Shown here piece after piece: positions 31,277 to 50,244 of a stretch of DNA of 64,000 bases. How positions within the stretch are numbered: position 1 is the stretch's first letter; the number at the start of each line of letters is the position of its first letter. Position numbers and translations under genes: made by a program. The DNA is from Alkalispirochaeta sp. (GTDB lineage: Bacteria > Spirochaetota > Spirochaetia > DSM-27196 > Alkalispirochaetaceae), in the NCBI GenBank assembly GCA_965601925.1, contig OZ271854.1, forward strand, positions 832,001 through 896,000, given 5' to 3'. Under the pieces are notes generated by a model. It had not been told where the DNA came from and made no database searches. It saw only the letters and a program-made list of their open reading frames with translations.

Positions 31277-31307
31277 CGATACCGCGAATCCGTTGGTGTG
31301 GTGCGGT

Positions 31308-32318
31308 TTAGTTACCGGCGAGGCGCATCTCAACGTCGGCGGGCATGCCCGTTTCCAGGGCGAGCTGCTCGTTGTGCGACCACTCGATCCAGGAGCCGTC
31401 GTAGTTCCGTACGTCCTCGAAACCGAGCAGGCTCGCAAGGACGAAGGTCGTGTGAGCGGAACGTACGCCGCTCTGGCAATAGGCGATAATCGTCTTGTCG
31501 GGGGTCACACCGATCTCGGCAAACTGAGCGCGAAGCGTCTCTACGTCGAGGAAGGTCGTGTTCTCGCCGAGGCTCGCCTTGTACTCGAGCCATACCGAAC
31601 CGGGAATGCGTCCGGCACGAACGGCGCCGTTCTTCATATCTTCTCCGGTAAACTCGCCGATGGAACGGGTGTCGAGAATAACGACGTTGGGGTCGTTCTG
31701 GGCGGCGATAACGTCGGCAACCGTCGCGACGCGTTGCACGTTCTCTTCGTTGATGAAGCGAAAATCGGTCGCCTCGACTACCGCGGAGGAAGCGCCCGTG
31801 GCGACCTCATAACCGGCGGCCTCCCACGCGTTGATACCGCCGTCGATCAACTTCACGTTGCGGAAGCCCTGCATGTCGAGCTGCCACCAGAAACGCGCCG
31901 CGTCGTAATCACCCTTGGCGTCGTAAGCCAGGATCATCGTTTCGTCGGTTACGCCCATCTGTCCGAGAAGCGCTTCGAGACCGGCGCGGTCGGTGCGCAT
32001 ACCGCCGAAGCCGTATACGGAAGAGTCGGCGCTGTAGTCGCCGCGGAAGATGTTCTGCGAACCCGGGATGTGGCCCAACGCGAAGTCGGCGGCCTTGCGA
32101 ATGTCGACGACGACGACGTCGTCGAGCGTACCGATCAGGTTACGGGCCGTGGCGACGGTGATGATGTGGCTCGACTCAACGTAGGTGTCGATCTTGAGCT
32201 CCGCAGCGTCGAGGTCTTCCACGGCAACGGTGATCTCTTCGCTACCGAAGGCGGTGAAAATGAGTGCCGCGGCGAGGGCGACAACCAGAACGGAAAGGGC
32301 GATAACTGCCTTTTTCAT
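31308..32318 (-). CDS. exported tandem-domain rhodanese / sulfurtransferase
   Basis: GHIPGS, AARFWW, LIDGG..AW, GRIPGS, active-site YCQSGVRS, YDGSWIEW; signal FTA-FGSEE. Confidence 0.93.
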   Translation of the reverse strand: MKKAVIALSVLVVALAAALIFTAFGSEEITVAVEDLDAAELKIDTYVESSHIITVATARNLIGTLDDVVVVDIRKAADFALGHIPGSQNIFRGDYSADSSVYGFGGMRTDRAGLEALLGQMGVTDETMILAYDAKGDYDAARFWWQLDMQGFRNVKLIDGGINAWEAAGYEVATGASSAVVEATDFRFINEENVQRVATVADVIAAQNDPNVVILDTRSIGEFTGEDMKNGAVRAGRIPGSVWLEYKASLGENTTFLDVETLRAQFAEIGVTPDKTIIAYCQSGVRSAHTTFVLASLLGFEDVRNYDGSWIEWSHNEQLALETGMPADVEMRLAGN

Positions 32319-32402
32319 GACAATCCTCCATGGATGTGATGTGCGTCGTCCGGAGGCTCGCCGACACGGGCGAGCCTGACCGGTACGATAAGTGGTGCGA
32401 TT

Positions 32403-34988
32403 TCAGCTCGCGGCAACGCCGCGCGATCGGCGAGCATACGCTCGTCGATGTTGTTTACCTGCATTTTCCAGCGCCTTTTTGGCCTTGTAGCGGTTGGCCC
32501 ACGCCTTGAGCGGTCCGCCGCCGACGCCGATGAACTCGGTCTCCTTCGTCTTGGTCGGGTCGAAGACGAGGTCGAGGATGTGAGCCGCCTCTTTGCCGCC
32601 TTTAACCATCGACTCGCGACACGCCGCGCAGTAGGTCACCATATGGTCGCTCTCGACCTCCGAGGTCCTGCGACTCATGACGCGCAACGCAAGCTCGGGG
32701 TTGGCCGGAACGACCATACCGCCGAATCCACAGCACCGCGCCGTCTCTCGAGTGTGCGGCGGCTCCTCGGTCTCGTATCCCAGCTCGTTCATGATCCAAC
32801 GGATACCGTCGTGGATACCCGAACGATCACGAGTCGAGCAGCTGTCGTGGATCGCGAAGGTAAGGTCGCTCCCCTTACCCCGTTGCGCCGCGCCCTCGGG
32901 CAGGCCGATCTCCGGCATGATCTCCCACAATGAACGTACGCGCTGGTTGGGGCTGTAGGCGCTCATGTTGAGGAAGCAGCTCTGACAGGCAACGATGATC
33001 TCCTCGGCGCCGAGCTTATCGATCTCCGCCTGCAGCTGCCCGTACCGTTGCTTGAACTGGTCCGCCTGGCCGAGTGCCTTGGTGGGCTTACCGCAGCACT
33101 TGAGGATCGCACCGGTATTACCCAGACGCTCCTGCAAGTGGGTGAAAATCTTACCGACCGCCTCCGGGTTGTGGCTCGGGAGCGAACACCCGGGGATGAA
33201 CACGCGTTTGGTGGTACCTTCGGGCGCCGCAACGGTCGTGTTGAACGTCTTGGAGAAGCCGAGCTTCTGGTGCATGTATATGACGTTGTGGCCCTTCATC
33301 GGGCTCTTGCCGTTGTTGGCCGACACCATCTCCTGACGCATACCGCCGAAGACTCCCTGCATATCGAACTCTTTGGGACAGACGATGGTGCACTGCTTAC
33401 ACATGTTGCAGCTGTACGGGATGATCGGGGCGACCTCGGGCGACTCGAGCATCTCACGAAAGAGCTGCTTGGGGCACTCGGAGAAGTCGGAGAGCATCTC
33501 GCACTCTTTGACGCACTTCAGACACTCGCACTTGAGACATCCGCCCGCCTCGTCCCGCGCCTGCTCTTCGGTGATACCGAAATCGTACTCGCCGAAGTCG
33601 CCGACGCGCTCCGCCGCGGGGCGCTTTTCCGAAACGACCCTGTCGCGTCGCACTGCGTCGTCGGGGATCTCCGTCTCGAGCTTGCTCTCGTAGGCGCGCT
33701 CCAGCTCTCTGTCGGCCGCAATATCCAGCCCATCGAAGAAGCGCACCAAGGTGGTAGCCGCTTTGCGCCCCTCCGCCATCGCCTCGACCGCAATGACCGA
33801 CTGGCCCGAGGCGTCTCCGGCGACCACGACGTTGGGAATCGAGGTCTGAAGCGTCGTCTCGTCGACGACGAATCGGCCGCCGCGCGTCGTCTCAAGGGTC
33901 GACGCGAAACTTCCGTCGGTGGCTTGCCCGACGGCAAAAATCACGCTCTCGACGTCCAGGGAGATCACGTCGTTCTCATCGTACTGAGGATCGAATCGTC
34001 CTTCATCGTTAAACACTGCGGTACAACGTTTGAGCTCGATCGCCTCGACACGATCGGATCCGGCGACGCGAACCGTGCCGCGGCCGTAGTGAATCTGCAC
34101 GCCCTCTTCCAACGCCTCTTCGATCTCCCAATTGTGGGCGGGAGACTCATCGATGTCACCTTCGAGCATGATCAGGTGCACATCTTCGATACCGATGCGA
34201 CGGGCGCTTCGTACGACGTCGACGGCTACATTACCGCCGCCGATTACCGCTATGCGCGATCCGAGTCCCTCGAACGCGCCGTTCAAGCTGACATCGCGGA
34301 GAAAATCGACGGCGTTAAATACACCGGTCAGTTCGTGGCCCGGCACGGGAATCACCACGCCGCGGTGTGCGCCGACGGCGATCACGACACCGTCGTACTC
34401 TTTTTCGATCTCGTCGAAAGAGATGTCGTTTCCGATATCGACGCCGAGGCGAAACTCGACGCCCATCATCTTGAGAATCTCGTACTCTGCGGTGATCACG
34501 TTGCGCGGCAACCGATAGGCGGGGATTCCGACGTGCAGCATACCGCCGACTACCGGCAGACGGTCGAACACCGTGACGCGGAAGCCCTCTTTGGCGAGGT
34601 CGAACGCCGCCTGGGCACCGGCAGGTCCGGCGCCGATCACCGCGACTCGCTCATCACGGGCCGAAGCGGTCGTCGTATCCCACAAATCGGGATTGTCGTA
34701 ATTGTCGGCGACGAACCGCTTGAGCGCCGCGATGGACATGGCGCTTCCCAACTCGTTGCGCTTGCAGGAGCCTTCGCAGGGGTGGGCGCATACACGGCCG
34801 AGCGTTGCGGGGAGAAAAAGCTGTTCGCGGATCAACTCGATCGCCTCGACGAACTTGCCTTCGGCGATGAGATTAACATACCCCTTGATGTCGGTATGCA
34901 TCGGACAGGCGGCCTGACAGTACGGCGCCTCTTCTCCGAGACAGTTGTCGACGATGTCTTGCATTTTTGTGACCAAAGTGGTGTTCAT
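32403..34988 (-). CDS. GltD-like FAD/NAD(P) oxidoreductase fused to 4Fe-4S and two CCG domains
   Basis: C.....PYCQAACP and VCAHPCEGSC; GAGPAG; GGGNVA; CLKCECLKCVKEC; CNMCKQCTIVCP; PGCS..CCG..CQSC; HDSC..CCGFGG..YCAAC. Confidence 0.92.
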   Translation of the reverse strand: MNTTLVTKMQDIVDNCLGEEAPYCQAACPMHTDIKGYVNLIAEGKFVEAIELIREQLFLPATLGRVCAHPCEGSCKRNELGSAMSIAALKRFVADNYDNPDLWDTTTASARDERVAVIGAGPAGAQAAFDLAKEGFRVTVFDRLPVVGGMLHVGIPAYRLPRNVITAEYEILKMMGVEFRLGVDIGNDISFDEIEKEYDGVVIAVGAHRGVVIPVPGHELTGVFNAVDFLRDVSLNGAFEGLGSRIAVIGGGNVAVDVVRSARRIGIEDVHLIMLEGDIDESPAHNWEIEEALEEGVQIHYGRGTVRVAGSDRVEAIELKRCTAVFNDEGRFDPQYDENDVISLDVESVIFAVGQATDGSFASTLETTRGGRFVVDETTLQTSIPNVVVAGDASGQSVIAVEAMAEGRKAATTLVRFFDGLDIAADRELERAYESKLETEIPDDAVRRDRVVSEKRPAAERVGDFGEYDFGITEEQARDEAGGCLKCECLKCVKECEMLSDFSECPKQLFREMLESPEVAPIIPYSCNMCKQCTIVCPKEFDMQGVFGGMRQEMVSANNGKSPMKGHNVIYMHQKLGFSKTFNTTVAAPEGTTKRVFIPGCSLPSHNPEAVGKIFTHLQERLGNTGAILKCCGKPTKALGQADQFKQRYGQLQAEIDKLGAEEIIVACQSCFLNMSAYSPNQRVRSLWEIMPEIGLPEGAAQRGKGSDLTFAIHDSCSTRDRSGIHDGIRWIMNELGYETEEPPHTRETARCCGFGGMVVPANPELALRVMSRRTSEVESDHMVTYCAACRESMVKGGKEAAHILDLVFDPTKTKETEFIGVGGGPLKAWANRYKAKKALENAGKQHRRAYARRSRGVAAS

Positions 34989-35037
34989 GGTACTGACCTC
35001 TCAATATCGTGAAGGCGATTTTTTTGTATAATTTATT

Positions 35038-35089
35038 GTTGGGTTATCGTGACTACATTCACGATAACCCAACGTTATCTATGTGTCAA
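35038..35089 (-). promoter_or_regulatory. sigma70 promoter overlapped by a perfect 15-6-15 inverted repeat (operator)
   Basis: TTGACA (35089-35084)-17-TATCGT (35066-35061); GTTGGGTTATCGTGA-CTACAT-TCACGATAACCCAAC at 35038-35073. Confidence 0.75.
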
Positions 35090-35227
35090 TAAATTATCGA
35101 TAAAACTTTATTCCGTCGTTATTGAGATATGATTTATTGAAATTTTTTTGCCCTTGTGAAAAATATTACTACTTGTAATGCGCCGTTCACGCGTTGCACG
35201 GGGCGCCGAAGGCCGCCTGGAATGTAA

Positions 35228-36073
35228 TTACGCGACGCCTGTCATGAGACGTCGGCGATAATAACGTGCGAGGGTTCGGTCAAGGACGAGAAATAGTATC
35301 AGAGGTACCAGAACAAAAACAACGGTCAATACCGAGCCGAGCGTACGATCCCCGGATGAAAGAAATGGAAAGAGATAGCCGGTATAGGATCGTACCGCGC
35401 CGCCGCCGATAAGAAAGACTAAAAAATAATCGGAGAACGCAACCAGGAACACAACGGATCCACCGGCGAGTATCGCCGGACCCAAGAGGGGGAGGTACAC
35501 CGTCAGTAGTCGTCTGAGCGGCGTAGCTCCCAAATTGGCGGCGCACACGTCGTAGTTCGGATCGATCTGTTGAAAGCCCGCAATGAGCGATCGCAGCATG
35601 TACGGATATGACGCGGCCGTAAGCACCAAGACGACCCCGATCATGCCGTTGGCGACGCCCAGACGTATGAAGATGAAGTGGATCCCCATACCGTAGGTTA
35701 TCGCCGGGACGAGTACCGGTGAGAGAAAGAGCGTCTCAACGAACAGCCGTCCCCGAAACTCGTATCTGGCCAGCACGTTGGCCGGAAGCACGCATACTAC
35801 AAACGACAGCACAACGGTGAGTATCGAATACGCCGTTGAGGAGAGGAGGGACTCTATGATTCCCTCGCGGTTATCCACGAGAAATCGAACGCCCCGGGCG
35901 CTGAAGGCGGTCGGCAATATGTCGGGATAGACCCACCGTGCCGCAGCGGCGTAGAGAGCCAGCACGAGAAGCGGCACGACGAAAAAGACGACCATAAGAG
36001 CGAATAGAACGCCCCATCGCATCCCTCCTTTTTCATAAGGTTCGGCTGCGCGTCGGGTATCCTTCATCCTCAC
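35228..36073 (-). CDS. ABC transporter permease (YnjC C-half-like)
   Basis: W.YPDILP; EAA-like CAANLGA; FLIGGG; about 6 TM. Confidence 0.88.
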   Translation of the reverse strand: MRMKDTRRAAEPYEKGGMRWGVLFALMVVFFVVPLLVLALYAAAARWVYPDILPTAFSARGVRFLVDNREGIIESLLSSTAYSILTVVLSFVVCVLPANVLARYEFRGRLFVETLFLSPVLVPAITYGMGIHFIFIRLGVANGMIGVVLVLTAASYPYMLRSLIAGFQQIDPNYDVCAANLGATPLRRLLTVYLPLLGPAILAGGSVVFLVAFSDYFLVFLIGGGAVRSYTGYLFPFLSSGDRTLGSVLTVVFVLVPLILFLVLDRTLARYYRRRLMTGVA

Positions 36074-36987
36074 AACGGACGCTCCCAGGCGGAAAACCGT
36101 CGGGCCAGACGCGAGTACAGTAACACGAAGACCACGGCGGTCGCCGCCAGAAGCGTAAGGGCCGCCATCGCAATCGGTCGGTCGGTAAGTTGACCCTGAA
36201 AGTACAGCGAATAGACGGTCATCGGTATCATCTGCGGATTACTCGCCCCCAAGAGCCAGGGGATATCGAATCCACCCAAGGCGAATAGAAAAAGAATGAT
36301 AAACGTCTGATTCAGAATCGGCAGAATGAGAGGCAACACAACGCTGAAGAACACTCTGACCGGTCCCGCACCCAGCATGCGCGCCGTCGTCACCATCCGC
36401 TCCGGGATACGTTGCAGAACACCGAGGGTCAACAACATGACGAACGGAAACTCTTTGTAGATGTAGGCGAGAATCATTCCGATACCGTTGCGGGAAAACA
36501 GCAGGGGCGGGAAGCCGGGCTCGCCCACATCGATGTTGAGAGCGTGGAATACCGATGCAATGACGCCGCTCTGAGACCAAAACAACACGGTCAGAAAGGC
36601 CACGACGATGTGGGGAAGTATGATCGGCAACCGATACACCGACGCGGCGGCGGAAAACCAGCGCGGCCCTCTCCACAACAGATACGCAGCCACGGCGCCG
36701 AACACGACCGAAATCACCGCCGACACGCCGGATACAAACAGACTATGCAGGAGCGACGCGAGAAACTCAGGGCGCGTCAAGAGCTCCCGGTAGGCGTAGA
36801 GCACCCCCATATCGCCCCTCCGTAACGCAAAGAGCGACGGTCCCGCAAGCGAAAAGGATTGAAGCAGTCCATGGACGAGCCCCAACCCCACCGTCAGTGC
36901 AAAGAAGACCAACAGCGGTGCGAGTTTGAGGGCGACGCGCCGCCGCTCTCGCCGGTCGCCCGATACGGCGCGTCGTTGAATCGTCAC
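36070..36987 (-). CDS. ABC transporter permease (YnjC N-half-like)
   Basis: LPHIVVA; YKEFPF; TARMLGA; about 6 TM. Confidence 0.88.
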   Translation of the reverse strand: MTIQRRAVSGDRRERRRVALKLAPLLVFFALTVGLGLVHGLLQSFSLAGPSLFALRRGDMGVLYAYRELLTRPEFLASLLHSLFVSGVSAVISVVFGAVAAYLLWRGPRWFSAAASVYRLPIILPHIVVAFLTVLFWSQSGVIASVFHALNIDVGEPGFPPLLFSRNGIGMILAYIYKEFPFVMLLTLGVLQRIPERMVTTARMLGAGPVRVFFSVVLPLILPILNQTFIILFLFALGGFDIPWLLGASNPQMIPMTVYSLYFQGQLTDRPIAMAALTLLAATAVVFVLLYSRLARRFSAWERPL

Positions 36988-36999
36988 GGGTTGGTGTGC

Positions 37000-38262
37000 T
37001 CAGCGAAGACGAACGTATTCGTCCCAGCCGGTTTCCAACGCCTCCCAATACTCGGAGGGAATTTCAGGCACGCCGTAGCGGTCGAAATCCTCCAGCGCGA
37101 CGGTCGCTTCGCCGAGATCGAGCGCTTCGAAGCGCGTCCGATACTCTTCGGGAACTCGATCCAGGGCGAGAACGGTGAAGTCGCCCCAATTCTCCAACGT
37201 GTTTTTGGAGTATTGCGCCTCGGGTGAGAGGAGAAAGTCGGCCAGCACGAGCGCGGCGGGGGTGTTGGGCGCGTTGAACGGAATCGCTACGAAATGGGTG
37301 TTGAAGAGCGACCCGTCGGTCATAATGACCGAACGCACCGAGTCGGGATACCGTCCGTTGGCGATGCGCGTCGCCGCATTGGTCTGGGTGAACGACATGG
37401 TGAAGTCCACCTCGCCACGCTCGAAGAGCGTATCGAGGGCTGCCAAATCGCGCGGATAGCTCTCACCACCTTGCCAGAGATAGGGTTCAATTTCGTTCAG
37501 AAAGTCCCACAAACGCGGCGCTTGGGCCGCGAACAGCTCCTCGTCGAAGCCGTCGAGATACTGCTCGTGTCCACCGGTAAGCGCATAAAATGCCTGGCGA
37601 ATAAAGGCCGACCCGGTGAAATCCGGCGGTTGCGGATAGGTGAACCGTCCGGGATTCTCGCGCACCCAGCGGGACAAGGCGGCAAAATCGGTCGGGGGAT
37701 CGGGCACACGCGCGATATCCACATCGAAGTTGAATTGCGCTTTGCCCCATGGCGCCTCGTATCCGTCTACCGGAAAACCGGCGTCGGTTGCGGCGGTAGC
37801 GGGGTCCACGTAGCGGGCGAAGTTGGGCAGCATGTGCGTAAAGGGGCCGTAGAGAAGATCGGCGTCGCGCGCGTTCCGGAAGTTCTCTCCGTTTATCCAT
37901 ACAAGATCGATCGTACCGGTGTCTTGACCGGCCTGCATCTCGGTAAACAGCCGGTTCACGAAGACCGCCGCATCCATCGGCACGCGCTCGACGTCGATAT
38001 CGTACAGCTCCTCCATACGGTCGGAGACGAAGCCGTCGATCCACGCGTTGATCGTGTCCGATCCGCCCCACATGTAAAATCCGACTTCACTTCCGCGAGC
38101 ACGTTCGACGATCTCCTCGAAACTGAGCTCGCCGAGATCCTCGCGCGGCTCCTCGGCGCGACCGCCGGCCGACACAAGCGCAAGAGAACCGCACAACGCC
38201 ATCACGCCGAAAAGGGCCGCCTTAGACCCAAGGGGGAGTCGCCTCCCCGTTCGTGCGCTCAT
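37000..38262 (-). CDS. ynjB: ABC substrate-binding protein, YnjB-like
   Basis: FYMWGGS, IDLVWINGENF, EAPWGKAQF, YPQPPDFTG, NTHFVAIPFNA, FLLSPEAQ; ATG 38262 with GGAGG RBS. Confidence 0.9.
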   Translation of the reverse strand: MSARTGRRLPLGSKAALFGVMALCGSLALVSAGGRAEEPREDLGELSFEEIVERARGSEVGFYMWGGSDTINAWIDGFVSDRMEELYDIDVERVPMDAAVFVNRLFTEMQAGQDTGTIDLVWINGENFRNARDADLLYGPFTHMLPNFARYVDPATAATDAGFPVDGYEAPWGKAQFNFDVDIARVPDPPTDFAALSRWVRENPGRFTYPQPPDFTGSAFIRQAFYALTGGHEQYLDGFDEELFAAQAPRLWDFLNEIEPYLWQGGESYPRDLAALDTLFERGEVDFTMSFTQTNAATRIANGRYPDSVRSVIMTDGSLFNTHFVAIPFNAPNTPAALVLADFLLSPEAQYSKNTLENWGDFTVLALDRVPEEYRTRFEALDLGEATVALEDFDRYGVPEIPSEYWEALETGWDEYVRLR

Positions 38263-38293
38263 AAGACCTCCTTGCCGTGGGCGCTTGCGCCCG

Positions 38294-39280
38294 CTAAGAC
38301 TCCAGCGTAAAGACTTCCGTCGCGTAGAGCGACACCGTATCGCCGATATGATATCCCTCTCGGGCGGCGCGAACCGTCGCGTCCCAATCTCTGAAGGCGA
38401 CAATATAATGAGCGTTTCCCCCTACGAGTCGCAGGTCCGTTATCGTCCCCGGGCCGTCCTCTTCCGACCTGAGGTCGAACGACTCAGCCCGGGCGCACAC
38501 CAGACGCGACGCGACCATGTCGGAGCGTAGTGAGGTCAGCGTATCGTAAAGGTGCTCGGGTATAATATTGACGGGGCCGAACATACGAGCGACCTCCAGA
38601 TCGTGAGGATGAAAGTAGACCTCATGAAAACTCGCGATCTGCCGGAGCCGTCCCTCGATGATGACGCCGATTCTGTCGGATATCTCACTGGTCTCCTCCA
38701 AATCGTGGGAGACGACCACCGTGGTAACGCCCAGATCCTGCTGCAATGAACGAATGAACTGCGCCGTTTCGCGCTTGAGATTCTTATCAAGATTGGCAAA
38801 CGGCTCGTCGAGGAGGAGGAGCGCCGGCTCCATCACCAGTGCTCGCGCCAGAGCGACGCGCTGTCGCTGCCCGCCGGATAGTTGACCCGGCCAGTGGTCG
38901 GCCCTATCGGCAATACCCAACTGATCGAGATAGCGCATGACTCGCTCGCGTATCTCCACGCGAGTGGCGCGACAACGCCGACGTCGCGACCGCAAGCCGA
39001 ACGCGACGTTATCGAACACGGTCATATGGGGAAACAGGAGATAATCCTGGAATACGAGAATGGCGGGGTGATCTCGCGTGATCGCCTTTTCGTAGCGTAT
39101 CGATCCCGAGGACGGCGCCTCCAAGCCGGCGAGCATTCGTAGGAGCGTCGTCTTTCCGGCTCCGGACGGACCCACGAGGGAGAGGAGCTCGCCGCGCTTG
39201 ACGCCGAAACTGACCGACTCAAGGGCGGCAAATGCGCCGAAGCGCTTCGAGATAGCTTGAAGCTGCACATATTCACCCAT
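38294..39280 (-). CDS. ABC transporter ATP-binding protein (YnjD/PotA-like)
   Basis: GPSGAGKT, FQD.LLFPH, LSGGQ, LLLDEPF; TOBE-like tail; alternative TTG start at 39301. Confidence 0.92.
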   Translation of the reverse strand: MGEYVQLQAISKRFGAFAALESVSFGVKRGELLSLVGPSGAGKTTLLRMLAGLEAPSSGSIRYEKAITRDHPAILVFQDYLLFPHMTVFDNVAFGLRSRRRRCRATRVEIRERVMRYLDQLGIADRADHWPGQLSGGQRQRVALARALVMEPALLLLDEPFANLDKNLKRETAQFIRSLQQDLGVTTVVVSHDLEETSEISDRIGVIIEGRLRQIASFHEVYFHPHDLEVARMFGPVNIIPEHLYDTLTSLRSDMVASRLVCARAESFDLRSEEDGPGTITDLRLVGGNAHYIVAFRDWDATVRAAREGYHIGDTVSLYATEVFTLES

Positions 39281-39334
39281 TACGTGCTGAAATATCCTCA
39301 ATAACGGTTTAGTTTGTCCACATGAGAAGTCAGG

Positions 39335-39973
39335 ATGCTTGATCGAGTTACACGAGACCTCAAAGACCGGGCGCTGGACTCGTTCGTACGGTTCGTGCCC
39401 AAACGCGTCTCACCCACGGCCGTGACGGTCGCGTCTCTCCCCGTCGGTCTCGCCTCGGCGGTGAGTGCCGCCTACGGGTTGTGGTGGTGGGCGGTTGCGC
39501 TTTTCTGGGTCAATCGGCTCATGGACGGGCTGGACGGACTGATCGCCCGTTCCCGAAATCTTCAATCCGACGTCGGCGGCTACCTCGATATTATGGTCGA
39601 CTTCGTCGTGTACGCGACGATTCCGATCGGTGTGTGGCTCGGTCGCGGCGGGGGAGTGTCCGGCCGAGCGGCCCCTGCATGGCCCCTCGTGACGCTTCTG
39701 GCGGTGTTTTACGTCAACGGCGCGTCGTGGATGTATCTCTCGGCGCTCATCGAAAAACGGCGTCGCGAGTCGGCGGCGCCGGAGGCCGAGGAGAAACAAT
39801 CGATCACCAGCGTCGTCATGCCGACGGGGTTAATAGAAGGTACCGAGACGGTCGTGTTCTATACTCTTTTTTTCCTGTTTCCCGGGCAATATGCGCCTCT
39901 ATTCACGATCATGTCGGCGGCGACCCTCGTCGGAGTAGTCCAACGGATAGTGTGGGCTCGCCGCACACTGTAG
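39335..39973 (+). CDS. ynjF: CDP-alcohol phosphatidyltransferase family, YnjF-like
   Basis: NRLMDGLDGLIAR...GGYLDIMVDFVVY signature; GLIEGTET. Confidence 0.88.
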   Translation: MLDRVTRDLKDRALDSFVRFVPKRVSPTAVTVASLPVGLASAVSAAYGLWWWAVALFWVNRLMDGLDGLIARSRNLQSDVGGYLDIMVDFVVYATIPIGVWLGRGGGVSGRAAPAWPLVTLLAVFYVNGASWMYLSALIEKRRRESAAPEAEEKQSITSVVMPTGLIEGTETVVFYTLFFLFPGQYAPLFTIMSAATLVGVVQRIVWARRTL

Positions 39974-39975
39974 CG

Positions 39976-40791: not shown

Positions 40792-40800
40792 TGCCGCACC

Positions 40801-41730
40801 TTAGCGATACCTGATGCGGGGATCCACGGCGACGTACAGCACATCAACCACAAGATTTACCAGATTGAACACGACGGCGATCCAGAGAATCGCTCCCTGG
40901 ATCATCGGTAAGTCGCGCGCCTGAATCGCATCCACGGTAAGACGTCCGAGACCCGGAAGGCCGAAGATCGTCTCCACCACGACGGCACCGCCGAGGAGAG
41001 AGCCGAACTGAAGTCCGACGGTGGTGAGTACGGGAATCATGGTCCCGCGTAGCGCGTGGCGCCCCACCACGACGAGCTCTCGCAACCCTTTGGCGCGCGC
41101 CGTGCGCACGTAGTCCTCTCCCAACTGTTCCATGAGAGCCGACCGCGTCATGCGGGCGATGAACGCGACGCTTGCGAAGGCGATCGTCGCCGCCGGCAGG
41201 ACCATATGGCGCCAGGTGCCGCTCCCCGACGGCGGTAACCAGCGTAGATTGAGCGAGAACGCCTGCATCAGGAGAATACCGAGCCAAAACACCGGCATGG
41301 AGACGCCCATCAACACGACACCCATCACCGCGATATCGGGCCACCGCCTCGCTCGCAGCGCGGCAACGACACCGGCCGGAACGCCCACGAGCACCGCGAT
41401 CAGCAACGAGATCGCCGCCAATCGCGCGGTAAACGGGAAACGGGAGGCAATTTCTTCCAGTACCGGCCGCCCGGTACGAAACGAACGGCCCAAGTCACCG
41501 CGCGTCGCGCGGGATAGGAAGGCGACGTATTGTACGTACCACGGCCTATCCAGTCCCAACTGCTCGCGAATGCGTTCCACTTCCTCGGCGGATATGCCCT
41601 GTCCCGCCTCGCCCAACATCGCACGAACCGAGTCGCCCGGTGTGAGATGAAAGATCAAGAACACCAGGAACGATACGCCGACGAGAACGGGTACGAACAA
41701 TACGAGGCGACGAACGATATACGCCGGCAT
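40801..41730 (-). CDS. peptide/nickel ABC permease (DppB/OppB-type)
   Basis: GDLGRS, DYVRTARAKGL, ETIF.LPGLG, DPRIR. Confidence 0.93.
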   Translation of the reverse strand: MPAYIVRRLVLFVPVLVGVSFLVFLIFHLTPGDSVRAMLGEAGQGISAEEVERIREQLGLDRPWYVQYVAFLSRATRGDLGRSFRTGRPVLEEIASRFPFTARLAAISLLIAVLVGVPAGVVAALRARRWPDIAVMGVVLMGVSMPVFWLGILLMQAFSLNLRWLPPSGSGTWRHMVLPAATIAFASVAFIARMTRSALMEQLGEDYVRTARAKGLRELVVVGRHALRGTMIPVLTTVGLQFGSLLGGAVVVETIFGLPGLGRLTVDAIQARDLPMIQGAILWIAVVFNLVNLVVDVLYVAVDPRIRYR

Positions 41731-41742
41731 CGGCTGCGACCG

Positions 41743-43269: not shown

Positions 43270-43345
43270 GTCGGTACCCCCTGAATGAATGTTGTATTGC
43301 AGACCGAACGACATCTGCAATACGAACCGCCCCGTCGGCGCGTGT

Positions 43346-44584
43346 CTACGCCGACTCGATCGAGACTTTAATCGGGCCCACCAGCGTACGGTGCACCGGA
43401 CAACGATGGGCGATCTCCACAAGGCGCGCCCGCTGGTCGTCGTCCAACGCGCCGCGGAGCGCCAACGACACCCGAATATGCGTCCCCTGGCCCCGCGTTT
43501 CTCGAGCCCACTCGGCGGGAAACCCGAGTTCTTCGGCGGCGTGCCTACTATACTTAAGGTGTGTCGTTACCTCCTCCAACGGCCACTCCTTCCGATCCGC
43601 GTACATTCGTACCGTCATAACGGTGCATGCGGCGAGTCCCCACAGGAGATAGTCGAACGGCGTTCCGCCGAGGTCACCACCGCCGGCATCGGACGGTTCA
43701 TCGGCCAGCTGGTGGTGCCGACCGTCGGATAGCGTCACCCGATAGTGATCGCGCCCGATCCGTCCCGTGACGTTCCAGCCCTCGGCGGGTTCGACGAACC
43801 CGTCGCTCGACGGTGCAGGGGCGGGCAAAAACGAGTCCGCCCACGCCGCCAGGACGCGCGCAACGTGACGTGCGTCGCGCGCATTCGACAACAGATGATC
43901 GGCCCGATCGAGAGAGACGAAACTTTTGGGATGGCGTACGGCGGTGTATATGTCCTGCGCGTTGGAGATATCGACTACGTTGTCGATCGGACTATGAAAT
44001 ATGAGAACGCGCGTGCGGAGCTCGCCGAGCCACGTCGACGGCGGATGCGCTCGAAGATCGTCGATAAACTCCTTCCGTATGGAGAACGGGCGACCACCGA
44101 TCGAGACGCGCGCCTCCCCGGTGCGCTCTATCTCTTCGACCTCACAGGTAAACAGCTTCGTAACGTGCACCGGATCCGCGGGCGCCCCGATCGTTGCGAT
44201 ACCCTCGACGCCGTCTATCTTGCGTGCGGCAAAGAGCGTCGCGGTTCCTCCGAGGGAGTGACCGATCATGATCGCGGGCGACGAACCGTACTCGGCCTTC
44301 ATAAATGCGGCCGCAGCGACCAAGTCGGCGGCTTGGGAAGAGAAGGTCGTCTCCGAAAACGATCCTTCGCTCTCTCCCAGACCGGCAAAGTCGAAACTGA
44401 GTACCGCAATCCCCTCGTCGGCAAGTGAGCGCGCGATACGTCTGACTGCGAGCAGGTTCTTGGTGCACGTGAAGCAGTGGGCGAACAACGCCCATGCGCG
44501 CGGCGGGCCGTCCGCCGGAACGTCGACTTTGGCGGCAAGCGCCTCTCCCCGATCATTGAGAAAACGTACCGTTGTCCCCTGCAT
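43346..44584 (-). CDS. bifunctional alpha/beta hydrolase / OsmC-family protein
   Basis: FAHCFTC, GHSLGG, ADHLL; OsmC part ADEP...GG...LAACT...MYA.RK.W...CPVHRTL. Confidence 0.93.
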   Translation of the reverse strand: MQGTTVRFLNDRGEALAAKVDVPADGPPRAWALFAHCFTCTKNLLAVRRIARSLADEGIAVLSFDFAGLGESEGSFSETTFSSQAADLVAAAAFMKAEYGSSPAIMIGHSLGGTATLFAARKIDGVEGIATIGAPADPVHVTKLFTCEVEEIERTGEARVSIGGRPFSIRKEFIDDLRAHPPSTWLGELRTRVLIFHSPIDNVVDISNAQDIYTAVRHPKSFVSLDRADHLLSNARDARHVARVLAAWADSFLPAPAPSSDGFVEPAEGWNVTGRIGRDHYRVTLSDGRHHQLADEPSDAGGGDLGGTPFDYLLWGLAACTVMTVRMYADRKEWPLEEVTTHLKYSRHAAEELGFPAEWARETRGQGTHIRVSLALRGALDDDQRARLVEIAHRCPVHRTLVGPIKVSIESA

Positions 44585-44694
44585 TCGGATCCTCCGATTT
44601 CACGAGTACATTACGTTCACCCTCAATGTACTATTGCGGGCCGCCGACGGTCGATTAGTTGACGATACAAGTAATCGTGATAACTTTATGCTCC

Positions 44695-45504
44695 ATGAAA
44701 TGCGCACGTATTCATGGCGTCTTTGGGGTGGTTTTGGCGGGTCTCCTTGTTCCGGCGGCGCTCACGGCCGCACCGCAAGCCGAACTATGGCCGCGCTGGG
44801 AATCTCACGATCCGACGAGCACCATCGTGGTGGATCACGACCTGTGGCAGGAGTTCATCGACGAGTACATCGTTACCGACCATCCCACGGGGGTCGTCCG
44901 GGTCGACTATGCCGCAGTGACCGACGGCGACCGCCGGGACCTCCAGGCATACATCCGGGCGATGGAGGCCGTTCCGGTCGACGACCTCTCGCGGAACGAG
45001 CAACTTCCCTATTGGCTCAATCTATACAATGCGATAACCGTGGAGCTGATCCTGGAACACTATCCTTTGGATAGCATACGCGATATCAACCGTCCTTGGG
45101 ATACGCCGATCGCTACGGTGGAGGGTATCGAGGTCACGCTCAACGATATCGAGCATCGCATCATTCGGCCGATATGGATGGATCCGCGCATTCACTACGT
45201 TATCAACTGCGCGAGTTACGGCTGTCCCGATCTCTACCCTGTGGCGCTCACAGGGGATAACATCGACGGGATCATGGACCGCGCCGCAAGAATGTATCTC
45301 GCCCACCCCCGCGGCGTACGGTTCGAGGGAAATCGCCTGATCCTATCGAGCATTTTCGACTGGTTTCAGCCCGACTTCGGCACCGACGAGGAGGAGGTGC
45401 TCGCTCACATCGCGCAGTACGCACCGGCCGAGGTATCCTCGCGGTTTTCCCAGCGGAGGGGACGCATCCGGTACGAATACGATTGGGCGCTCAACAGCCC
45501 GTAA
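44695..45504 (+). CDS. exported DUF547-domain protein
   Basis: YWLNLYNA, LNDIEH.IIR, DPRIHYVINCASYGCP, SSIFDWF..DF, YDWALN. Confidence 0.93.
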   Translation: MKCARIHGVFGVVLAGLLVPAALTAAPQAELWPRWESHDPTSTIVVDHDLWQEFIDEYIVTDHPTGVVRVDYAAVTDGDRRDLQAYIRAMEAVPVDDLSRNEQLPYWLNLYNAITVELILEHYPLDSIRDINRPWDTPIATVEGIEVTLNDIEHRIIRPIWMDPRIHYVINCASYGCPDLYPVALTGDNIDGIMDRAARMYLAHPRGVRFEGNRLILSSIFDWFQPDFGTDEEEVLAHIAQYAPAEVSSRFSQRRGRIRYEYDWALNSP

Positions 45505-45740
45505 ACCGAACGACCGCTTCGGCGTCCCGTTGTTGACGAGACGCCCCCTACCTACCTTATACCATTCCGGGTACCGAAACGGATGGTGGATAATTGCCGC
45601 CCTTCGATATATCATAGAGGCGGCGGACCGTTGCCGGGACGTTCGATTACACGCTCCGGCTCGGCTTCGGTCAGCCTCTTCACGTGTGGCTTGTCTTTCT
45701 CTGATTATTTCAGTTAGGTTTATCGTAGGGGGTAGTGACT

Positions 45741-46208
45741 ATGCTTGCACATGCAATTGATAAGAAGAAACGGACCGTATACAGCCCCAGTGATTTCGCC
45801 GATATCCACAGCATCTGCATCGCGACCAATATCGGAAAGGCGAACAGGATCGTCAGTAGAATCTATGAAGAGGCGTTCCGCGAGGTCGGTATATCGTCGC
45901 CGCAGTTTGCGCTTTTGGTCGCGTTGGTCATCAGTCCCGGATCAACCTCCAGCGAAATCGCAGAGACTCTGGGCTCGGACCCGAGCACGGTATCCCGAAA
46001 TACCGAGCTCCTCGTCAAACGCGGTCTCATTTCAGTAAAGCCCGGCGTCGACCGGCGAGTACGTACGTTTTCGCTTACCGAACACGGCGAGCATACGATC
46101 CAATGCTGCGTTCCGCGGTGGAAACGGGCGCAACGCGCGGCACTGCGCAAGATCGGCCGCTCTCACTGGCGGGACATTCGGCGAAGCTTGAGACGCCTCG
46201 CCGGCTGA
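45741..46208 (+). CDS. MarR-family regulator
   Basis: CIA.NI.KA.R....Y, QFALL, DPSTVSR, DRRVR..SLT..G. Confidence 0.9.
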   Translation: MLAHAIDKKKRTVYSPSDFADIHSICIATNIGKANRIVSRIYEEAFREVGISSPQFALLVALVISPGSTSSEIAETLGSDPSTVSRNTELLVKRGLISVKPGVDRRVRTFSLTEHGEHTIQCCVPRWKRAQRAALRKIGRSHWRDIRRSLRRLAG

Positions 46209-46215
46209 ATATCCG

Positions 46216-46263
46216 TTGCATTTACAAACAATTATTGACGACGGCGTGTCTCCGCGGTAGCTT
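46216..46263 (+). promoter_or_regulatory. sigma70 promoter (leaderless) with upstream TTGCA-N2-TRCAA dyad
   Basis: TTGACG (46235)-17-TAGCTT (46258), ATG at 46271; TTGCATTTACAA at 46216 resembles TTGCACATGCAA at 45745. Confidence 0.55.
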
Positions 46264-46270
46264 TCTGGCC

Positions 46271-47011
46271 ATGAGACCTGGAAATATTGTGCGTTTCGCG
46301 CTTATCGCCGCCATAGTCGTTCTGGCGATTGTCCTGGGAGTTCGATTCGATGTGCAGTCAATACTCCGCGATCTGCTCGGCTGGGTCGAATCACAAGGGT
46401 TCACCGGGGTGTTGGTCTTCATTGCGGTCTACATTTTTGCAACGGTGTTCTTCATTCCCGGCAGCATTTTGACCCTCGGCGCGGGCGCGGTCTTCGGCGT
46501 CGGCGCGGGCACCGCGTGGGTATCCGCCGCGTCAACGCTGGGCGCCTTTGCGGCATTTCTCACCGGGCGCTACATCGCACGTGGATGGGTCGCCGCCAAG
46601 ATCGACGACAATCCGCGCTTCGCGGCGATCGATACGGCGGTCGGTCGCGAGGGGTGGAAGATCGTTCTCCTCACGCGACTCTCACCGATTTTCCCCTTTA
46701 ACCTACTCAACTACGCGTACGGCCTCACGGCGGTTTCCGCATCGTCGTATTTCTTTGCATCGTGGATAGGAATGCTTCCGGGAACGGTCATGTACGTGTA
46801 TATCGGCTCGTTGGCGGCAAATCTCGCGACGCTCGGCAGCGCTTCGGGAGAACGCGATATGGTGCAATGGATTCTATACGGTGTCGGACTCGTGGCCACG
46901 ATTGCGGTGACGCTATTCGTAACGCGTGTCGCCAGACGAGCGTTGAAAACGGCCATCGACGACACGCCCGATACACCCACTACGCACGGCAACCAGGAGG
47001 TAGAGTCATGA
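46271..47011 (+). CDS. TVP38/TMEM64 (VTT/DedA) membrane protein
   Basis: IPGSILTLGAGAVFG, GRY.AR, LTRLSPIFPFNLLNYAYGLT, GMLPGT. Confidence 0.93.
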   Translation: MRPGNIVRFALIAAIVVLAIVLGVRFDVQSILRDLLGWVESQGFTGVLVFIAVYIFATVFFIPGSILTLGAGAVFGVGAGTAWVSAASTLGAFAAFLTGRYIARGWVAAKIDDNPRFAAIDTAVGREGWKIVLLTRLSPIFPFNLLNYAYGLTAVSASSYFFASWIGMLPGTVMYVYIGSLAANLATLGSASGERDMVQWILYGVGLVATIAVTLFVTRVARRALKTAIDDTPDTPTTHGNQEVES

Positions 47012-48549
47012 AACGGCCCGAAGTTCTTCCCGCGGATCGATACAACACGGTCTTACTCGACAACGTCCACCCGCTCGATTGGACCAATCCGGAACCCTCG
47101 GGCACATACAACGTCGTCGTCGTCGGCGCCGGAACCGCAGGCCTCATCAGCGCCTCGATCGCCGCCTCTCTCGGCGCCCGCACGGCGCTCGTAGAGCGGC
47201 ACTTCTTGGGTGGAGACTGTCTCAACGTCGGGTGCGTACCGTCCAAGGGCGTAATCCGCGGAGCCCGCGCACAAGCCGAGTTGAACTGGCTTCGCACGAG
47301 CGAGCTTGTCGACGACTCCTCGACAATGCCGCGGGTGTCGTTCCCCGCAGTCATGGAACGCCTCCGCCGCATCCGCTCGGAGATCAGCGGGCACGATTCG
47401 GCCGCTCGCTATCGTGACGAGTTCGGCGTCGACGTGTACATCGGCTCCGGACATTATACCGGAAGAAAGACACTGGAGGTTGTCGGAGACGACGGAACGA
47501 CGCGCCAACTACGCTTCTCCCGTTCCATTATCGCTACCGGCGCTCGCGCCGCCGCGCCCCCCATTCCGGGCCTCGATACCGTGCCCTACCTCACGAATGA
47601 AAATCTGTTCTGGCTCACCGAGCTCCCGGAATCGTTGGTCATTATCGGCGCCGGACCAATCGGTTGCGAGATGGCGCAGAGCTTCGCCCGCCTCGGAAGC
47701 AGGGTGGAGCTCGTCGATATGGCTCCCCGTATCCTGCCGCGCGAGGACGCCGACGTTGCGGAAATCGTGCAGAAGGAGCTTGAGCACGCGGGCGTCCACC
47801 TCCATTTGGGTGTTGCCGTAAAAGAGGTCGGCGGCGGCGAGGAAGCAATCGAGGTGCGCTATACTTCCGGGGCGGGTTCCGCCGGTACGGCCGGGGGACG
47901 GAAACTCCTGGTGGCGGTCGGTCGCGCCGCCAATCTCGACGGTCTCGGGCTCGAGGCGGCGGGCGTAAAAGCTCACAAGCGCGGCATTGCGGTCAACGAC
48001 TTTCTACAAACGAGCAATCGCCGCATATACGCCGCCGGAGACGTAGCGAGCCCGTACCAGTTCACCCATACCGCCGAGGCGAATGCGTCGATTGTCGTGC
48101 AGAACGCGCTGTTTATGCGTACGGCGCGTACGAGTCGCCTCGTCGTCCCGTGGTCGACCTATACCAGTCCGGAGGTCGCGCACGCCGGTATCTCCGAGCA
48201 GGATGCGCAAAAGAGCGGGATCGCCGTCGACGTCTATCGTCACGAGCTTTCGGGGGTAGACCGAGCGCGCCTCGACGGCGAGACCGAGGGGTTCGTGAAG
48301 CTCATTACCCCCCGAGGAAAAACGCGCATCCTGGGTGCGACGATCGTAGCAGCCCACGCCGGCGAGATGATGGGAGAGATCGTCTTGGCGATGCAAAACG
48401 GGCTGGGGGTCGACAAGCTGGCCTCAGTCATTCATCCTTACCCCACTCAAGCCGAGGCGGTGAAGCGCGCCGCGGCGGGATACATCAAGAAGAAGCTGAC
48501 GCCGCGTACCAAGCGGATCTTCAGTACGTGGTTTCGTTGGAATCGGTAG
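47008..48549 (+). CDS. class I pyridine nucleotide-disulfide oxidoreductase (MerA/Lpd-like, no C-terminal Cys pair)
   Basis: GAGTAG, GGDCLNVGCVPSK, GAGPIGCE, AAGD, HPYPTQAE; ATGA-coupled to the VTT gene. Confidence 0.92.
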   Translation: MKRPEVLPADRYNTVLLDNVHPLDWTNPEPSGTYNVVVVGAGTAGLISASIAASLGARTALVERHFLGGDCLNVGCVPSKGVIRGARAQAELNWLRTSELVDDSSTMPRVSFPAVMERLRRIRSEISGHDSAARYRDEFGVDVYIGSGHYTGRKTLEVVGDDGTTRQLRFSRSIIATGARAAAPPIPGLDTVPYLTNENLFWLTELPESLVIIGAGPIGCEMAQSFARLGSRVELVDMAPRILPREDADVAEIVQKELEHAGVHLHLGVAVKEVGGGEEAIEVRYTSGAGSAGTAGGRKLLVAVGRAANLDGLGLEAAGVKAHKRGIAVNDFLQTSNRRIYAAGDVASPYQFTHTAEANASIVVQNALFMRTARTSRLVVPWSTYTSPEVAHAGISEQDAQKSGIAVDVYRHELSGVDRARLDGETEGFVKLITPRGKTRILGATIVAAHAGEMMGEIVLAMQNGLGVDKLASVIHPYPTQAEAVKRAAAGYIKKKLTPRTKRIFSTWFRWNR

Positions 48550-50202: not shown

Positions 50203-50244
50203 CGAAGCGTCTCTCACGCCCGTACACTCGCTGCAGACACTATT

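What the first reader, a model, noticed from the sequence alone, without database searches (positions are those of the whole stretch)
31308..48549. Candidate undescribed system: extended ynj-type transport, sulfur-transfer, thiol-redox and lipid-head-group locus
Seen within 17 kb: exported rhodanese, GltD/Fe-S/CCG oxidoreductase, YnjB-type ABC transporter with split permease, divergent YnjF-type CDP-alcohol transferase, OsmC-hydrolase fusion, exported DUF547 (CxxxxC), MarR, and a DedA/VTT protein coupled to a MerA-like disulfide reductase. Knowledge: E. coli has the poorly understood ydjXYZ-ynjABCD, ynjE (rhodanese), ynjF neighbourhood, where YdjX/YdjZ are DedA-family. I recall DUF547, VTT and MerA-like genes recurring beside ynjBCD and beside arsenosugar-associated genes. 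Inference: one conserved pathway that imports a substrate, reduces or sulfurates it through Cys relays on both sides of the membrane, and attaches it to a CDP-activated lipid. An organo-arsenic, sulfur or selenium head group is a testable guess. The Dpp-type genes may be an unrelated insertion.
Basis: partly seen in the sequence, partly recalled or inferred. Interest (0 to 1): 0.85.

Follow-up and report, generated by a model that had tools for sequence, protein, structure and literature searches.

The report
Likely arsenosugar import and arsenolipid locus
A spirochaete gene cluster matching E. coli's unexplained ydj-ynj operon probably imports arsenic-containing sugars made by algae and other microbes and builds them into a membrane phospholipid, which would give a testable job to genes that have had none.

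Summary
The genes are real but lie in at least five transcription units. The core is conserved across phyla: YnjBCD importer, YnjF, VTT/DedA, a cytoplasmic reductase (MerA-like or GltD-CCG), exported rhodanese and DUF547. The OsmC-hydrolase and dppABC are an insertion.

Across 89 ynjB loci, 49 carry ynjF and 19 carry an APH kinase, nearly always with the arsenosugar glycosyltransferase families TIGR04282/04283; only 1 carries both. 20 carry arsenosugar genes, scattered over the whole YnjB tree. MerA-like and GltD-CCG replace each other (both only here). VTT is found fused to MerA-like, to rhodanese and to CCG. This genome and 60 relatives lack ArsS, while 42 of 61 have YnjB, a salvage pattern.

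Best reading (0.55): YnjBCD imports a dimethylarsinoyl-riboside of glycerol; YnjF joins it to CDP-diacylglycerol to give arsenosugar phospholipid; VTT flips it; the reductase and rhodanese set the As redox/sulfur state. Linkage is shown; every chemical step is inferred. No paper found states this.

The parts
31252..31277 (-). Intrinsic-terminator-like hairpin after the rhodanese gene
   Evidence: 11-pair stem, T tail
31308..32318 (-). Two-domain rhodanese with N-terminal hydrophobic segment and single Cys281 in a CQSGVR loop; core accessory member
   Evidence: PF00581 x2; 24% to YnjE; loop QSGVR is the commonest at CCG loci; fused to VTT in L068, L095, L105
32403..34988 (-). GltD-like FAD/NAD(P)H + Fe-S + two CCG domains, 861 aa; anaerobic-type reductase module; sibling of, not a canonical, NF045663 protein
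   Evidence: 530.8 vs cutoff 530, profile positions 192-664 of 759; CCG profile hits 9ojn, and HdrB weakly; context
35037..35170 (-). Promoter region of gltD-CCG: TTGACA-17-TATCGT, a perfect 15-bp inverted repeat over the -10, a TATCGATA box next to the -35, two Rex-like boxes
   Evidence: the Rex consensus is recalled
35228..36073 (-). ABC permease, second half of YnjC
   Evidence: PF00528; 27% to YnjC C-terminal part
36070..36987 (-). ABC permease, first half of YnjC
   Evidence: PF00528; 25% to YnjC N-terminal part
37000..38262 (-). YnjB substrate-binding protein, type II fold, no Cys in the mature part; proposed arsenoriboside receptor
   Evidence: NF008633 507.9 > 203; 39% to E. coli YnjB, only hit in genome; model pLDDT 95.3; fold; 55-61% identical to YnjBs beside TIGR04282/04283
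38294..39280 (-). ABC ATPase (YnjD position; 328 aa, longer than E. coli YnjD)
39335..39973 (+). YnjF CDP-alcohol phosphotransferase; proposed arsenosugar-phospholipid synthase
   Evidence: PF01066; D64/D67/G68/R72/G81/D85/D89 invariant in 28 orthologues; two other PF01066 genes elsewhere in the genome
39976..43269 (-). dppC, dppB, dppA without an ATPase; insertion, not part of the system
   Evidence: DppA in 2 of 89 loci against 9 of 252 genome tiles; ynjF and DUF547 ORFs 41 bp apart in G722/L082
43346..44584 (-). Alpha/beta-hydrolase-OsmC fusion; part of the insertion
   Evidence: only the window among 89 ynjB loci
44695..45504 (+). DUF547 protein with N-terminal hydrophobic segment and CxxxxCP motif; goes with the MerA-like version of the module
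   Evidence: PF04784; motif in 13 of 13 copies; with MerA-like in 8 of 11 loci, with CCG in 1 of 11
45741..46208 (+). Cys-bearing MarR regulator; lineage-limited
   Evidence: 3 of 89 loci
46271..47011 (+). VTT/DedA (YdjX-like) membrane protein without Cys; proposed flippase for the modified lipid
   Evidence: PF09335; 32% to YdjX; 50 of 89 loci
47008..48549 (+). PRK06370-type flavin disulfide reductase with CLNVGC, no C-terminal Cys pair, basic/aromatic C-terminal tail
   Evidence: NF004991 670 > 620; MerA TIGR02053 382 < 454

Best explanation
This is the salvage branch of the bacterial arsenosugar pathway, ending in a membrane lipid. (1) YnjBCD imports a 5-deoxy-5-dimethylarsinoyl-riboside, most likely the glycerol riboside (AsSug328). 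Inferred from gene context. (2) YnjF transfers phosphatidyl from CDP-diacylglycerol to the free primary hydroxyl of its glycerol, giving arsenosugar phospholipid in one step. Enzyme class shown, acceptor inferred. Other genomes reach the same product through nucleoside hydrolase + kinase (or ArsM/ArsS + an MTA-phosphorylase-like enzyme) and the TIGR04282/04283 transferases. (3) VTT/DedA moves the lipid between leaflets. Inferred. (4) A membrane-attached NAD(P)H reductase, MerA-like in some lineages and GltD-CCG in others, reduces the As(V)=O or As=S head group on the inner face; the exported rhodanese or DUF547 acts on it at the outer face. This is the weakest step (about 0.3). The window holds both reductase versions; dppABC and the OsmC-hydrolase are inserted. 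Shown: gene identity, conserved linkage, fusions and replacement patterns. Not shown: any ligand, reaction or product.
For: 20 of 89 unique ynjB loci carry TIGR04282, TIGR04283 or ArsS (HMM confirmation). That label needs at least 10 changes on an 87-row YnjB tree and occurs in all main clades; the window's YnjB is 55-61% identical to such copies. In a 251-genome sample, the 4 genomes with both YnjB and TIGR04282 have them 3, 3, 4 and 22 kb apart. ynjF only 48, kinase only 18, both 1 of 89. Kinase with TIGR04282 23 of 25; nucleoside hydrolase with kinase 6 of 6; ArsS with kinase 0 of 27; phosphorylase with ArsS 2 of 3. L095 joins GltD-CCG, rhodanese::VTT, an MTAP-like gene, ArsS::ArsM, ynjB, permeases and ynjF. 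Salvage pattern: ArsS in 0 of 61 relatives, YnjB in 42 of 61; ArsS in 103 of 251 but in none of the 20 YnjB genomes. MerA-like only 20, CCG only 23, both only the window. CCG::VTT fusion between a rhodanese and TIGR04282/04283/ArsM-like genes in a genome picked without regard to ynjB (L223). VTT or MerA-like also flank ArsS in 9 of 20 ArsS loci. Top VIA-align fold matches of YnjB are glycoside-binding proteins (Z 27-28, rmsd about 3, 12% identity), tied with other classes.
Against: No arsenosugar gene is in this locus: no ArsS, no TIGR04282, best TIGR04283 109.6 < 182; arsM lies about 200 kb away. 69 of 89 ynjB loci have no arsenosugar gene nearby. ynjF/kinase exclusivity is not strict: both occur in L121 and L221, and 2 of 5 kinase-type genomes have ynjF elsewhere. 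The three full-length GltD-CCG orthologues among relatives are not beside ynjB, two of them on complete chromosomes. Only 3 of 67 ynjB-anchored loci carry CCG, all one genus. The kinase's best solved relative is choline kinase LicA (E 1.9e-5) and no MtnK hit appeared. YnjB's fold does not name a ligand; Foldseek favours PotD, 2-AEP and sugar-phosphate binders. The names of TIGR04282/04283 come from NCBIfam, which does not show tested function. Samples are phylogenetically clustered.
Confidence: 0.55

Rival explanations
1. Same architecture, but the cargo is a sulfur or selenium analogue (a 5-substituted riboside such as a methylthio or sulfonium ribose), and the 'arsenosugar' gene set handles arsenic only incidentally.
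For: Rhodanese at 19 of 89 loci; YeeE/YedE sulfur-transport genes with CCG in 6 of 6 cases; HdrB-like CCG domains; ArsS in 41% of a genome sample, which is frequent for a detoxification side path; the hydrolase/kinase versus phosphorylase pattern copies methylthioadenosine salvage (recalled).
Against: ArsM-type methyltransferases sit in the same clusters (L035, L095, L223), as does TIGR04169. ArsS is described as adenosylating arsenic (passages of PMC12159101; bioRxiv 2024.02.01.577332).
Confidence: 0.18
2. The cargo is a choline-like cation (choline or arsenocholine): YnjF acts like phosphatidylcholine synthase and the kinase plus CofC-like transferase like LicA/LicC.
For: Kinase profile's best structures are choline kinases; YnjB profile hits PotD weakly; the one-step versus kinase-route logic fits equally.
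Against: It does not explain the nucleoside hydrolase, the MTAP-like gene, the GT2 enzyme or ArsS. YnjF aligns best to inositol-type transferases (DIPPS E 1e-18, PIPS E 4e-15), less to choline phosphotransferases.
Confidence: 0.09
3. Catabolic scavenging or detoxification: arsenosugars are imported for their ribose, glycerol or phosphate; arsenic is reduced and expelled.
For: Two reductases in the locus; an arsC-like gene 3 kb to the right and arsM elsewhere; bacterial mineralisation of organoarsenicals proposed for a soda lake (abstract of PMC7345539).
Against: The constant partners are transferases, fatty-acid hydroxylase and a DedA protein, which point to lipid synthesis. arsC is in none of the first 30 loci. 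Efflux genes were not searched systematically.
Confidence: 0.1
4. Sulfur supply for molybdenum cofactor: the rhodanese and GltD-CCG serve Moco enzymes, as the E. coli annotation of YnjE and the context of NF045663 suggest; the importer is a bystander.
For: YnjE is annotated molybdopterin synthase sulfurtransferase; canonical NF045663 genes lie beside a molybdopterin aldehyde oxidoreductase; fdhD/mobA-like genes flank two ynjB loci.
Against: Canonical members score 778-1034 bits over the full profile, the window 530.8 over positions 192-664. None of 5 canonical loci has VTT, rhodanese or ynj genes. YnjE is periplasmic with unclear substrate (passages of PMC10215317).
Confidence: 0.05
5. A chance pile-up of unrelated genes.
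For: Five strand blocks, a separate promoter, one real insertion.
Against: Single-copy families in one tile, recurrence across phyla and three kinds of VTT fusion.
Confidence: 0.03

Closest known systems
E. coli K-12 ydjX-ydjY-ydjZ-ynjA-ynjB-ynjC-ynjD, ynjE, ynjF (b1750-b1758)
   Same: YnjB 39%, YnjF 34%, YdjX 32%, YnjD 34%, YnjC halves 25-27%, an exported rhodanese. The E. coli operon and ynjE are direct FNR targets (passages of PMC3688515), in line with Rex-like boxes here.
   Different: Split permease; no YdjY or YnjA hit in this genome; two-domain rhodanese with a different loop; MerA-like, GltD-CCG and DUF547 instead of the AhpD-like YnjA. The E. coli locus has no assigned ligand.
ArsM/ArsS arsenosugar gene set (TIGR04167, TIGR04282, TIGR04283, TIGR04169)
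   Same: Shares VTT, MerA-like, DUF547, DUF3047 and fatty-acid hydroxylase neighbours; physically merged with ynjBCD/ynjF in L035 and L095.
   Different: This genome lacks ArsS and TIGR04282; it has an importer and YnjF instead.
Methylthioadenosine salvage (MtnP, or MtnN + MtnK); recalled
   Same: Phosphorylase versus hydrolase-plus-kinase alternation in related loci.
   Different: Those enzymes are absent from the window; the kinase showed no MtnK hit.
Mercuric reductase MerA
   Same: Closest solved structure (5x1y, E 2.7e-73); CxxxxC centre; Tyr in the HPYPT motif aligns to MerA PYLT.
   Different: No C-terminal Cys pair in 35 of 35 copies; below the TIGR02053 cutoff; no mer genes seen in the finding's interval.
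NF045663 diclust_near_Sec (aldehyde oxidoreductase cluster)
   Same: Flavin, Fe-S and CCG domains; score just over cutoff.
   Different: Partial profile coverage, about half the score, different neighbours.
COG0398 DedA subfamily (Todor et al., bioRxiv 2023.01.04.522824; whole text read)
   Same: Putative phospholipid scramblases; the commonest fusion is to a pyridine nucleotide-disulfide reductase.
   Different: That paper links them to aerobic metabolism and names no arsenic link; here VTT also pairs with an Fe-S/CCG reductase.

Membership tests
E. coli ydj-ynj locus | YnjB-family binding protein | tested here: met
   NF008633 507.9 > 203; only genome hit of E. coli YnjB
E. coli ydj-ynj locus | YnjF orthologue adjacent | tested here: met
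   only tblastn hit of E. coli YnjF in the genome
E. coli ydj-ynj locus | YdjX/YdjZ DedA protein | tested here: met
   best YdjX hit in the genome, 32%
E. coli ydj-ynj locus | Three-domain YnjE with CGTGWR loop | tested here: not met
   two domains, CQSGVR loop, third-best YnjE hit in the genome
E. coli ydj-ynj locus | YdjY and YnjA | tested here: not met
   no tblastn hit at E 1e-5 in the genome
Arsenosugar biosynthesis gene set | ArsS (TIGR04167) | tested here: not met
   best 39 bits, cutoff 300; genome 96.7% complete, one contig
Arsenosugar biosynthesis gene set | TIGR04282 and TIGR04283 | tested here: not met
   no match; 109.6 < 182
Arsenosugar biosynthesis gene set | ArsM | tested here: met
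   316.4 > 263, but about 200 kb from the locus
Arsenosugar biosynthesis gene set | Formation of arsenosugar or arsenolipid | not testable with these tools
   needs ICP-MS lipidomics
MerA mercuric reductase | Redox CxxxxC near FAD | tested here: met
   Cys71/Cys76
MerA mercuric reductase | C-terminal Cys-Cys pair and family cutoff | tested here: not met
   absent; 382.5 < 454.45. The Cys-pair criterion is recalled.
NF045663 diclust_near_Sec | HMM cutoff | tested here: met
   530.8 vs 530
NF045663 diclust_near_Sec | Full-length match and aldehyde-oxidoreductase context | tested here: not met
   profile 192-664 of 759; canonical copies 1-758 beside NF045668
CDP-alcohol phosphotransferases | DxxDGxxAR...GxxxDxxxD motif | tested here: met
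   invariant in 28 rows
CDP-alcohol phosphotransferases | Membership of a named subfamily (PgsA, PssA, PIPS, DIPPS) | tested here: not met
   all far below cutoff
COG0398 DedA scramblases | VTT domain | tested here: met
   PF09335 93.8 > 33.9
COG0398 DedA scramblases | Lipid flipping activity | not testable with these tools
   needs proteoliposome assay
PotD / TbpA / AfuA / sugar-binding proteins | Ligand-defining relationship | tested here: inconclusive
   12-18% identity, tied Z-scores across ligand classes

The most novel reading that the evidence does not exclude
Many bacteria, E. coli included, deliberately acquire arsenosugars as a cofactor and use the arsenosugar phospholipid as a redox or sulfur shuttle across the inner membrane: a cytoplasmic NAD(P)H enzyme (MerA-like or GltD-CCG) reduces the head group to As(III), VTT flips it, and the exported rhodanese or DUF547 discharges it in the periplasm. 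The lipid would replace the membrane cysteines of a DsbD-type relay, which explains why VTT has none yet is fused to partners on both sides.
Probability: 0.12. Interest if true: 0.95.

Novelty: new variant of a known kind. Interest (0 to 1): 0.76.

Why it matters
It gives a precise, cheap test for E. coli's FNR-activated ydjXYZ-ynjABCD, ynjE and ynjF genes, which have no known ligand or substrate. It names candidates for the unassigned late steps of arsenosugar-phospholipid synthesis. It suggests heterotrophic bacteria in sediments, soda lakes and guts take up algal or dietary arsenosugars on purpose, which bears on the arsenic cycle and on the fate of seafood arsenic. It would make arsenic useful to the cell, not only something to detoxify.

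Tried and rejected
Single-sequence fold of YnjB failed (pLDDT 35); redone with 56 sequences. phmmer found no solved relative of YnjB or DUF547. ESM Atlas gave only the known Pfam families. The first YnjB tree lost 28 of 89 rows to my motif filter; it was replaced by an 87-row FastTree (L039 and L078 too short). Many recurrent ORF clusters were antisense frames and were ignored. Repeat search showed no insertion-boundary repeats around dpp/osmC. The palindrome in the gltD promoter is unique in the genome and not kept in orthologues, so no regulon could be built. Rejected: MerA identity, canonical NF045663 identity, YnjF as housekeeping PgsA (two other PF01066 genes), OsmC-hydrolase and Dpp as members, a Cys relay through VTT, strict ynjF/kinase exclusivity. 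Ten paper searches found no paper linking ynj genes to arsenic; most subscription journals are outside the library and no supplements were read.
Full report
Observation. All named genes are present with the stated domains. They form at least five strand blocks: gltD-CCG + rhodanese (-), with a promoter-like site and a terminator; ynjD-B-C1-C2 (-); ynjF (+), divergent from ynjD; osmC-hydrolase-dppABC (-); DUF547-marR-VTT-reductase (+). YnjB, YnjF, DUF547, the PRK06370-type reductase and the CCG protein are each found in 1 of 252 20-kb tiles of the genome, all within this region. Close relatives are labelled Spirochaetaceae. E. coli YnjB and YnjF each have one hit in the genome, in the window; YdjX's best hit is the window VTT; YnjE's best two hits are elsewhere; YdjY and YnjA have none.

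Data set. I mapped 30 ynjB loci from named genomes, 7 from a Spirochaetota sample, 19 from a Pseudomonadota sample, relatives, and 77 metagenome loci found with the CCG part (41 of them of 5 kb or more drawn, all 77 counted). After dropping 4 duplicates there are 89 ynjB loci: 67 anchored on ynjB, 20 found through CCG, the window and E. coli. Families were called by BLAST thresholds against references, with representative members confirmed by HMM. Many loci are cut by contig ends and many are close kin, so counts are descriptive. One genome, G251 (= L033), is flagged unpublished; it is the centre of the Pseudomonadota sample and one row in these counts.

What belongs. In the 89 loci: VTT 50, ynjF 49, CCG 24, MerA-like 21, rhodanese 19, kinase 19, DUF547 8, OsmC-hydrolase 1 (window), DppA 2. 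In G722 ynjF and DUF547 are 41 bp apart, against 4.7 kb here, so osmC-hydrolase-dppABC is an insertion. GltD-CCG first looked unrelated: absent from the first 30 loci, in 3 of 67 ynjB-anchored loci, and far from ynjB in G722 and G742. Anchoring on it changed that: of 20 CCG loci of 13 kb or more, 20 have VTT, 19 rhodanese, 11 ynjB, 9 TIGR04282, none MerA-like. That set was retrieved with two short patterns from 7 close orthologues, so it describes this subfamily only. In a Desulfobacterota sample chosen without regard to ynjB, canonical NF045663 proteins (778-1034 bits) sit beside an aldehyde oxidoreductase with no VTT, rhodanese or ynj gene in 5 of 5 loci. Of 4 full-length window-type proteins, one has rhodanese and VTT, one has ArsS and TIGR04282 within 8 kb, and two are cut by contig ends. 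A further genome has a Fer4/CCG::VTT fusion between a rhodanese and TIGR04282, TIGR04283 and an ArsM-like fusion. VTT is also fused to MerA-like and to rhodanese. MerA-like and CCG meet in 1 of 85 CCG loci, the window.

The arsenic link. 20 of 89 ynjB loci carry TIGR04282, TIGR04283 or ArsS. On an 87-row FastTree the label needs at least 10 changes, 9 forced by well-supported branches, and the sister group of the window's clade (support 94) is mostly kinase + glycosyltransferase loci, at 55-61% identity. Rhodanobacter L035 holds ynjBCD, ynjF, ArsS (443.7 > 300), an ArsM-like gene and hits to both transferases at its edge. L095 holds GltD-CCG, rhodanese::VTT, an MTAP-like gene, ArsS::ArsM, ynjB, permeases and ynjF, with both transferases slightly under cutoff. 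In 251 Pseudomonadota genomes, YnjB is in 20, TIGR04282 in 131, ArsS in 103; 4 have YnjB and TIGR04282, 3, 3, 4 and 22 kb apart, and none has YnjB and ArsS. Among 61 relatives YnjB is in 42 and ArsS in 0. Of 20 ArsS loci, 9 have VTT or MerA-like, 2 DUF547, none ynjB or ynjF. So VTT/reductase/DUF547 is shared by makers and importers, as expected for a downstream step.

Two routes. ynjF alone 48, kinase alone 18, both 1, neither 22. The kinase goes with TIGR04282 in 23 of 25 loci, a nucleoside hydrolase goes with the kinase in 6 of 6, ArsS goes with the kinase in 0 of 27, and a phosphorylase goes with ArsS in 2 of 3. This mirrors methylthioadenosine salvage (recalled) and points to a 5-substituted ribose. 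Against strict exclusivity: L221 also has both, and G498 and G334 have ynjF elsewhere, while G382, G252 and G151 do not. For it: 4 of 5 genomes whose ynjB has neither neighbour have ynjF elsewhere. A linear path, kinase to transferases to YnjF, fits as well and leaves YnjF's role unchanged.

Mechanism. ArsS adenosylates arsenic in oxo-arsenosugar synthesis (passages of PMC12159101, and bioRxiv 2024.02.01.577332; the primary papers were not read). AsSug328 is a dimethylarsinoyl-riboside of glycerol, converted to its thio form in an artificial gut with enteric bacteria (abstract of PMC6656958). Arsenosugar phospholipids, AsSugGly and AsRib occur in a soda-lake food web (passages of PMC7345539). 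That arsenosugar phospholipid equals phosphatidyl joined to the glycerol of AsSug328 is my recall of its structure; it is the product a CDP-alcohol phosphotransferase would make in one step. YnjF keeps the catalytic motif, aligns best to inositol-type transferases, and has EGTE where PIP synthase has ERPER. Reading this as a non-phosphorylated acceptor rests on recalled roles of those arginines. YnjB is a type II binding protein without Cys in the mature part; its fold matches do not identify a ligand. COG0398 DedA proteins are proposed scramblases, often fused to disulfide reductases (Todor et al., whole text). The window VTT has no Cys, so it cannot carry a thiol relay. The reductase lacks MerA's terminal Cys pair in 35 of 35 copies and mostly ends in a basic, aromatic tail, which I read as membrane attachment. 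E. coli YnjE is periplasmic with an unclear substrate (passages of PMC10215317); its operon is FNR-activated (passages of PMC3688515) and weakly BaeR-induced (passages of PMC2731931).

Comparison and novelty. It works like a salvage branch of the ArsM/ArsS pathway but is not a member of the biosynthetic gene set. It is a variant of the E. coli ydj-ynj locus, lacking YdjY, YnjA and a true YnjE. Ten searches found no paper joining ynj genes to arsenic; subscription journals and supplements were not covered. Earlier AI notes of this scan reached similar links in other genomes; I saw them after forming this reading and do not count them as support.

Verdict. Real conserved system, confidence about 0.9. 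Tied to the arsenosugar gene set, about 0.85. Arsenoriboside import plus lipid attachment, 0.55. Specific redox role, about 0.3. Interest 0.76; new variant of a known kind.

Noticed in passing
window 35037-35170: AT-rich gltD-CCG promoter with a perfect 15-bp inverted repeat over the -10, unique in the genome; two Rex-like boxes (2 of 78 genome-wide at up to 3 mismatches); a TATCGATA box near the -35 recurs upstream of orthologues L072, L077, L079, L080, L081. The genome has two PF06971 genes.
   Followed up: partly
window 51548-52081 and 52171-54356: Thioredoxin-type arsC-like gene (below cutoff) followed by two ABC permeases, 3 kb right of the locus; not conserved beside ynjB in the first 30 loci.
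   Followed up: partly
window 48559-51511: MCP and an NMT1/THI5 binding protein follow the reductase; the NMT1 gene also follows it in G722 (L082).
   Followed up: no
window 29654-31087: Protein with two cNMP-binding and two STAS domains just downstream of the rhodanese terminator.
   Followed up: no
L068-L076 (G708, G718, G719, G730, G737, G745, G752, G753): A second, divergent YnjB clade in relatives, with ynjF; in G708, G718 and G719 it is beside rhodanese::VTT and split GltD/CCG genes (a small methyltransferase lies between in L069). G719 has both YnjB types.
   Followed up: partly
L094, L104, L108, L113, L120, L121: Split YeeE/YedE sulfur-transport genes, usually with a LysR regulator, accompany the GltD-CCG version only.
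   Followed up: partly
L033-L036, L067: TonB-dependent receptor directly upstream of or near ynjB in Gammaproteobacteria, suggesting a scarce solute.
   Followed up: no
G000 C1:116381, 1004430, 601710, 2289232: DUF3047, DUF1499 and YHS-domain genes, which are neighbours of ynj/ars loci elsewhere, are dispersed in this genome.
   Followed up: no
L223:506-3724: 1072-aa radical SAM + ArsM-like + DUF5714 fusion after TIGR04282/04283; the radical SAM part gave no TIGR04167 hit at E 1e-30.
   Followed up: no
L185, L187, L188: TIGR04282/04283 clusters with a MerA-like gene and an ORF only weakly similar to ArsS, possibly another radical SAM variant.
   Followed up: no
L068:14472-17062 (G718): The NF045663 match runs through one TGA at the GltD/CCG junction; mapped as two overlapping genes, selenocysteine not examined.
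   Followed up: no
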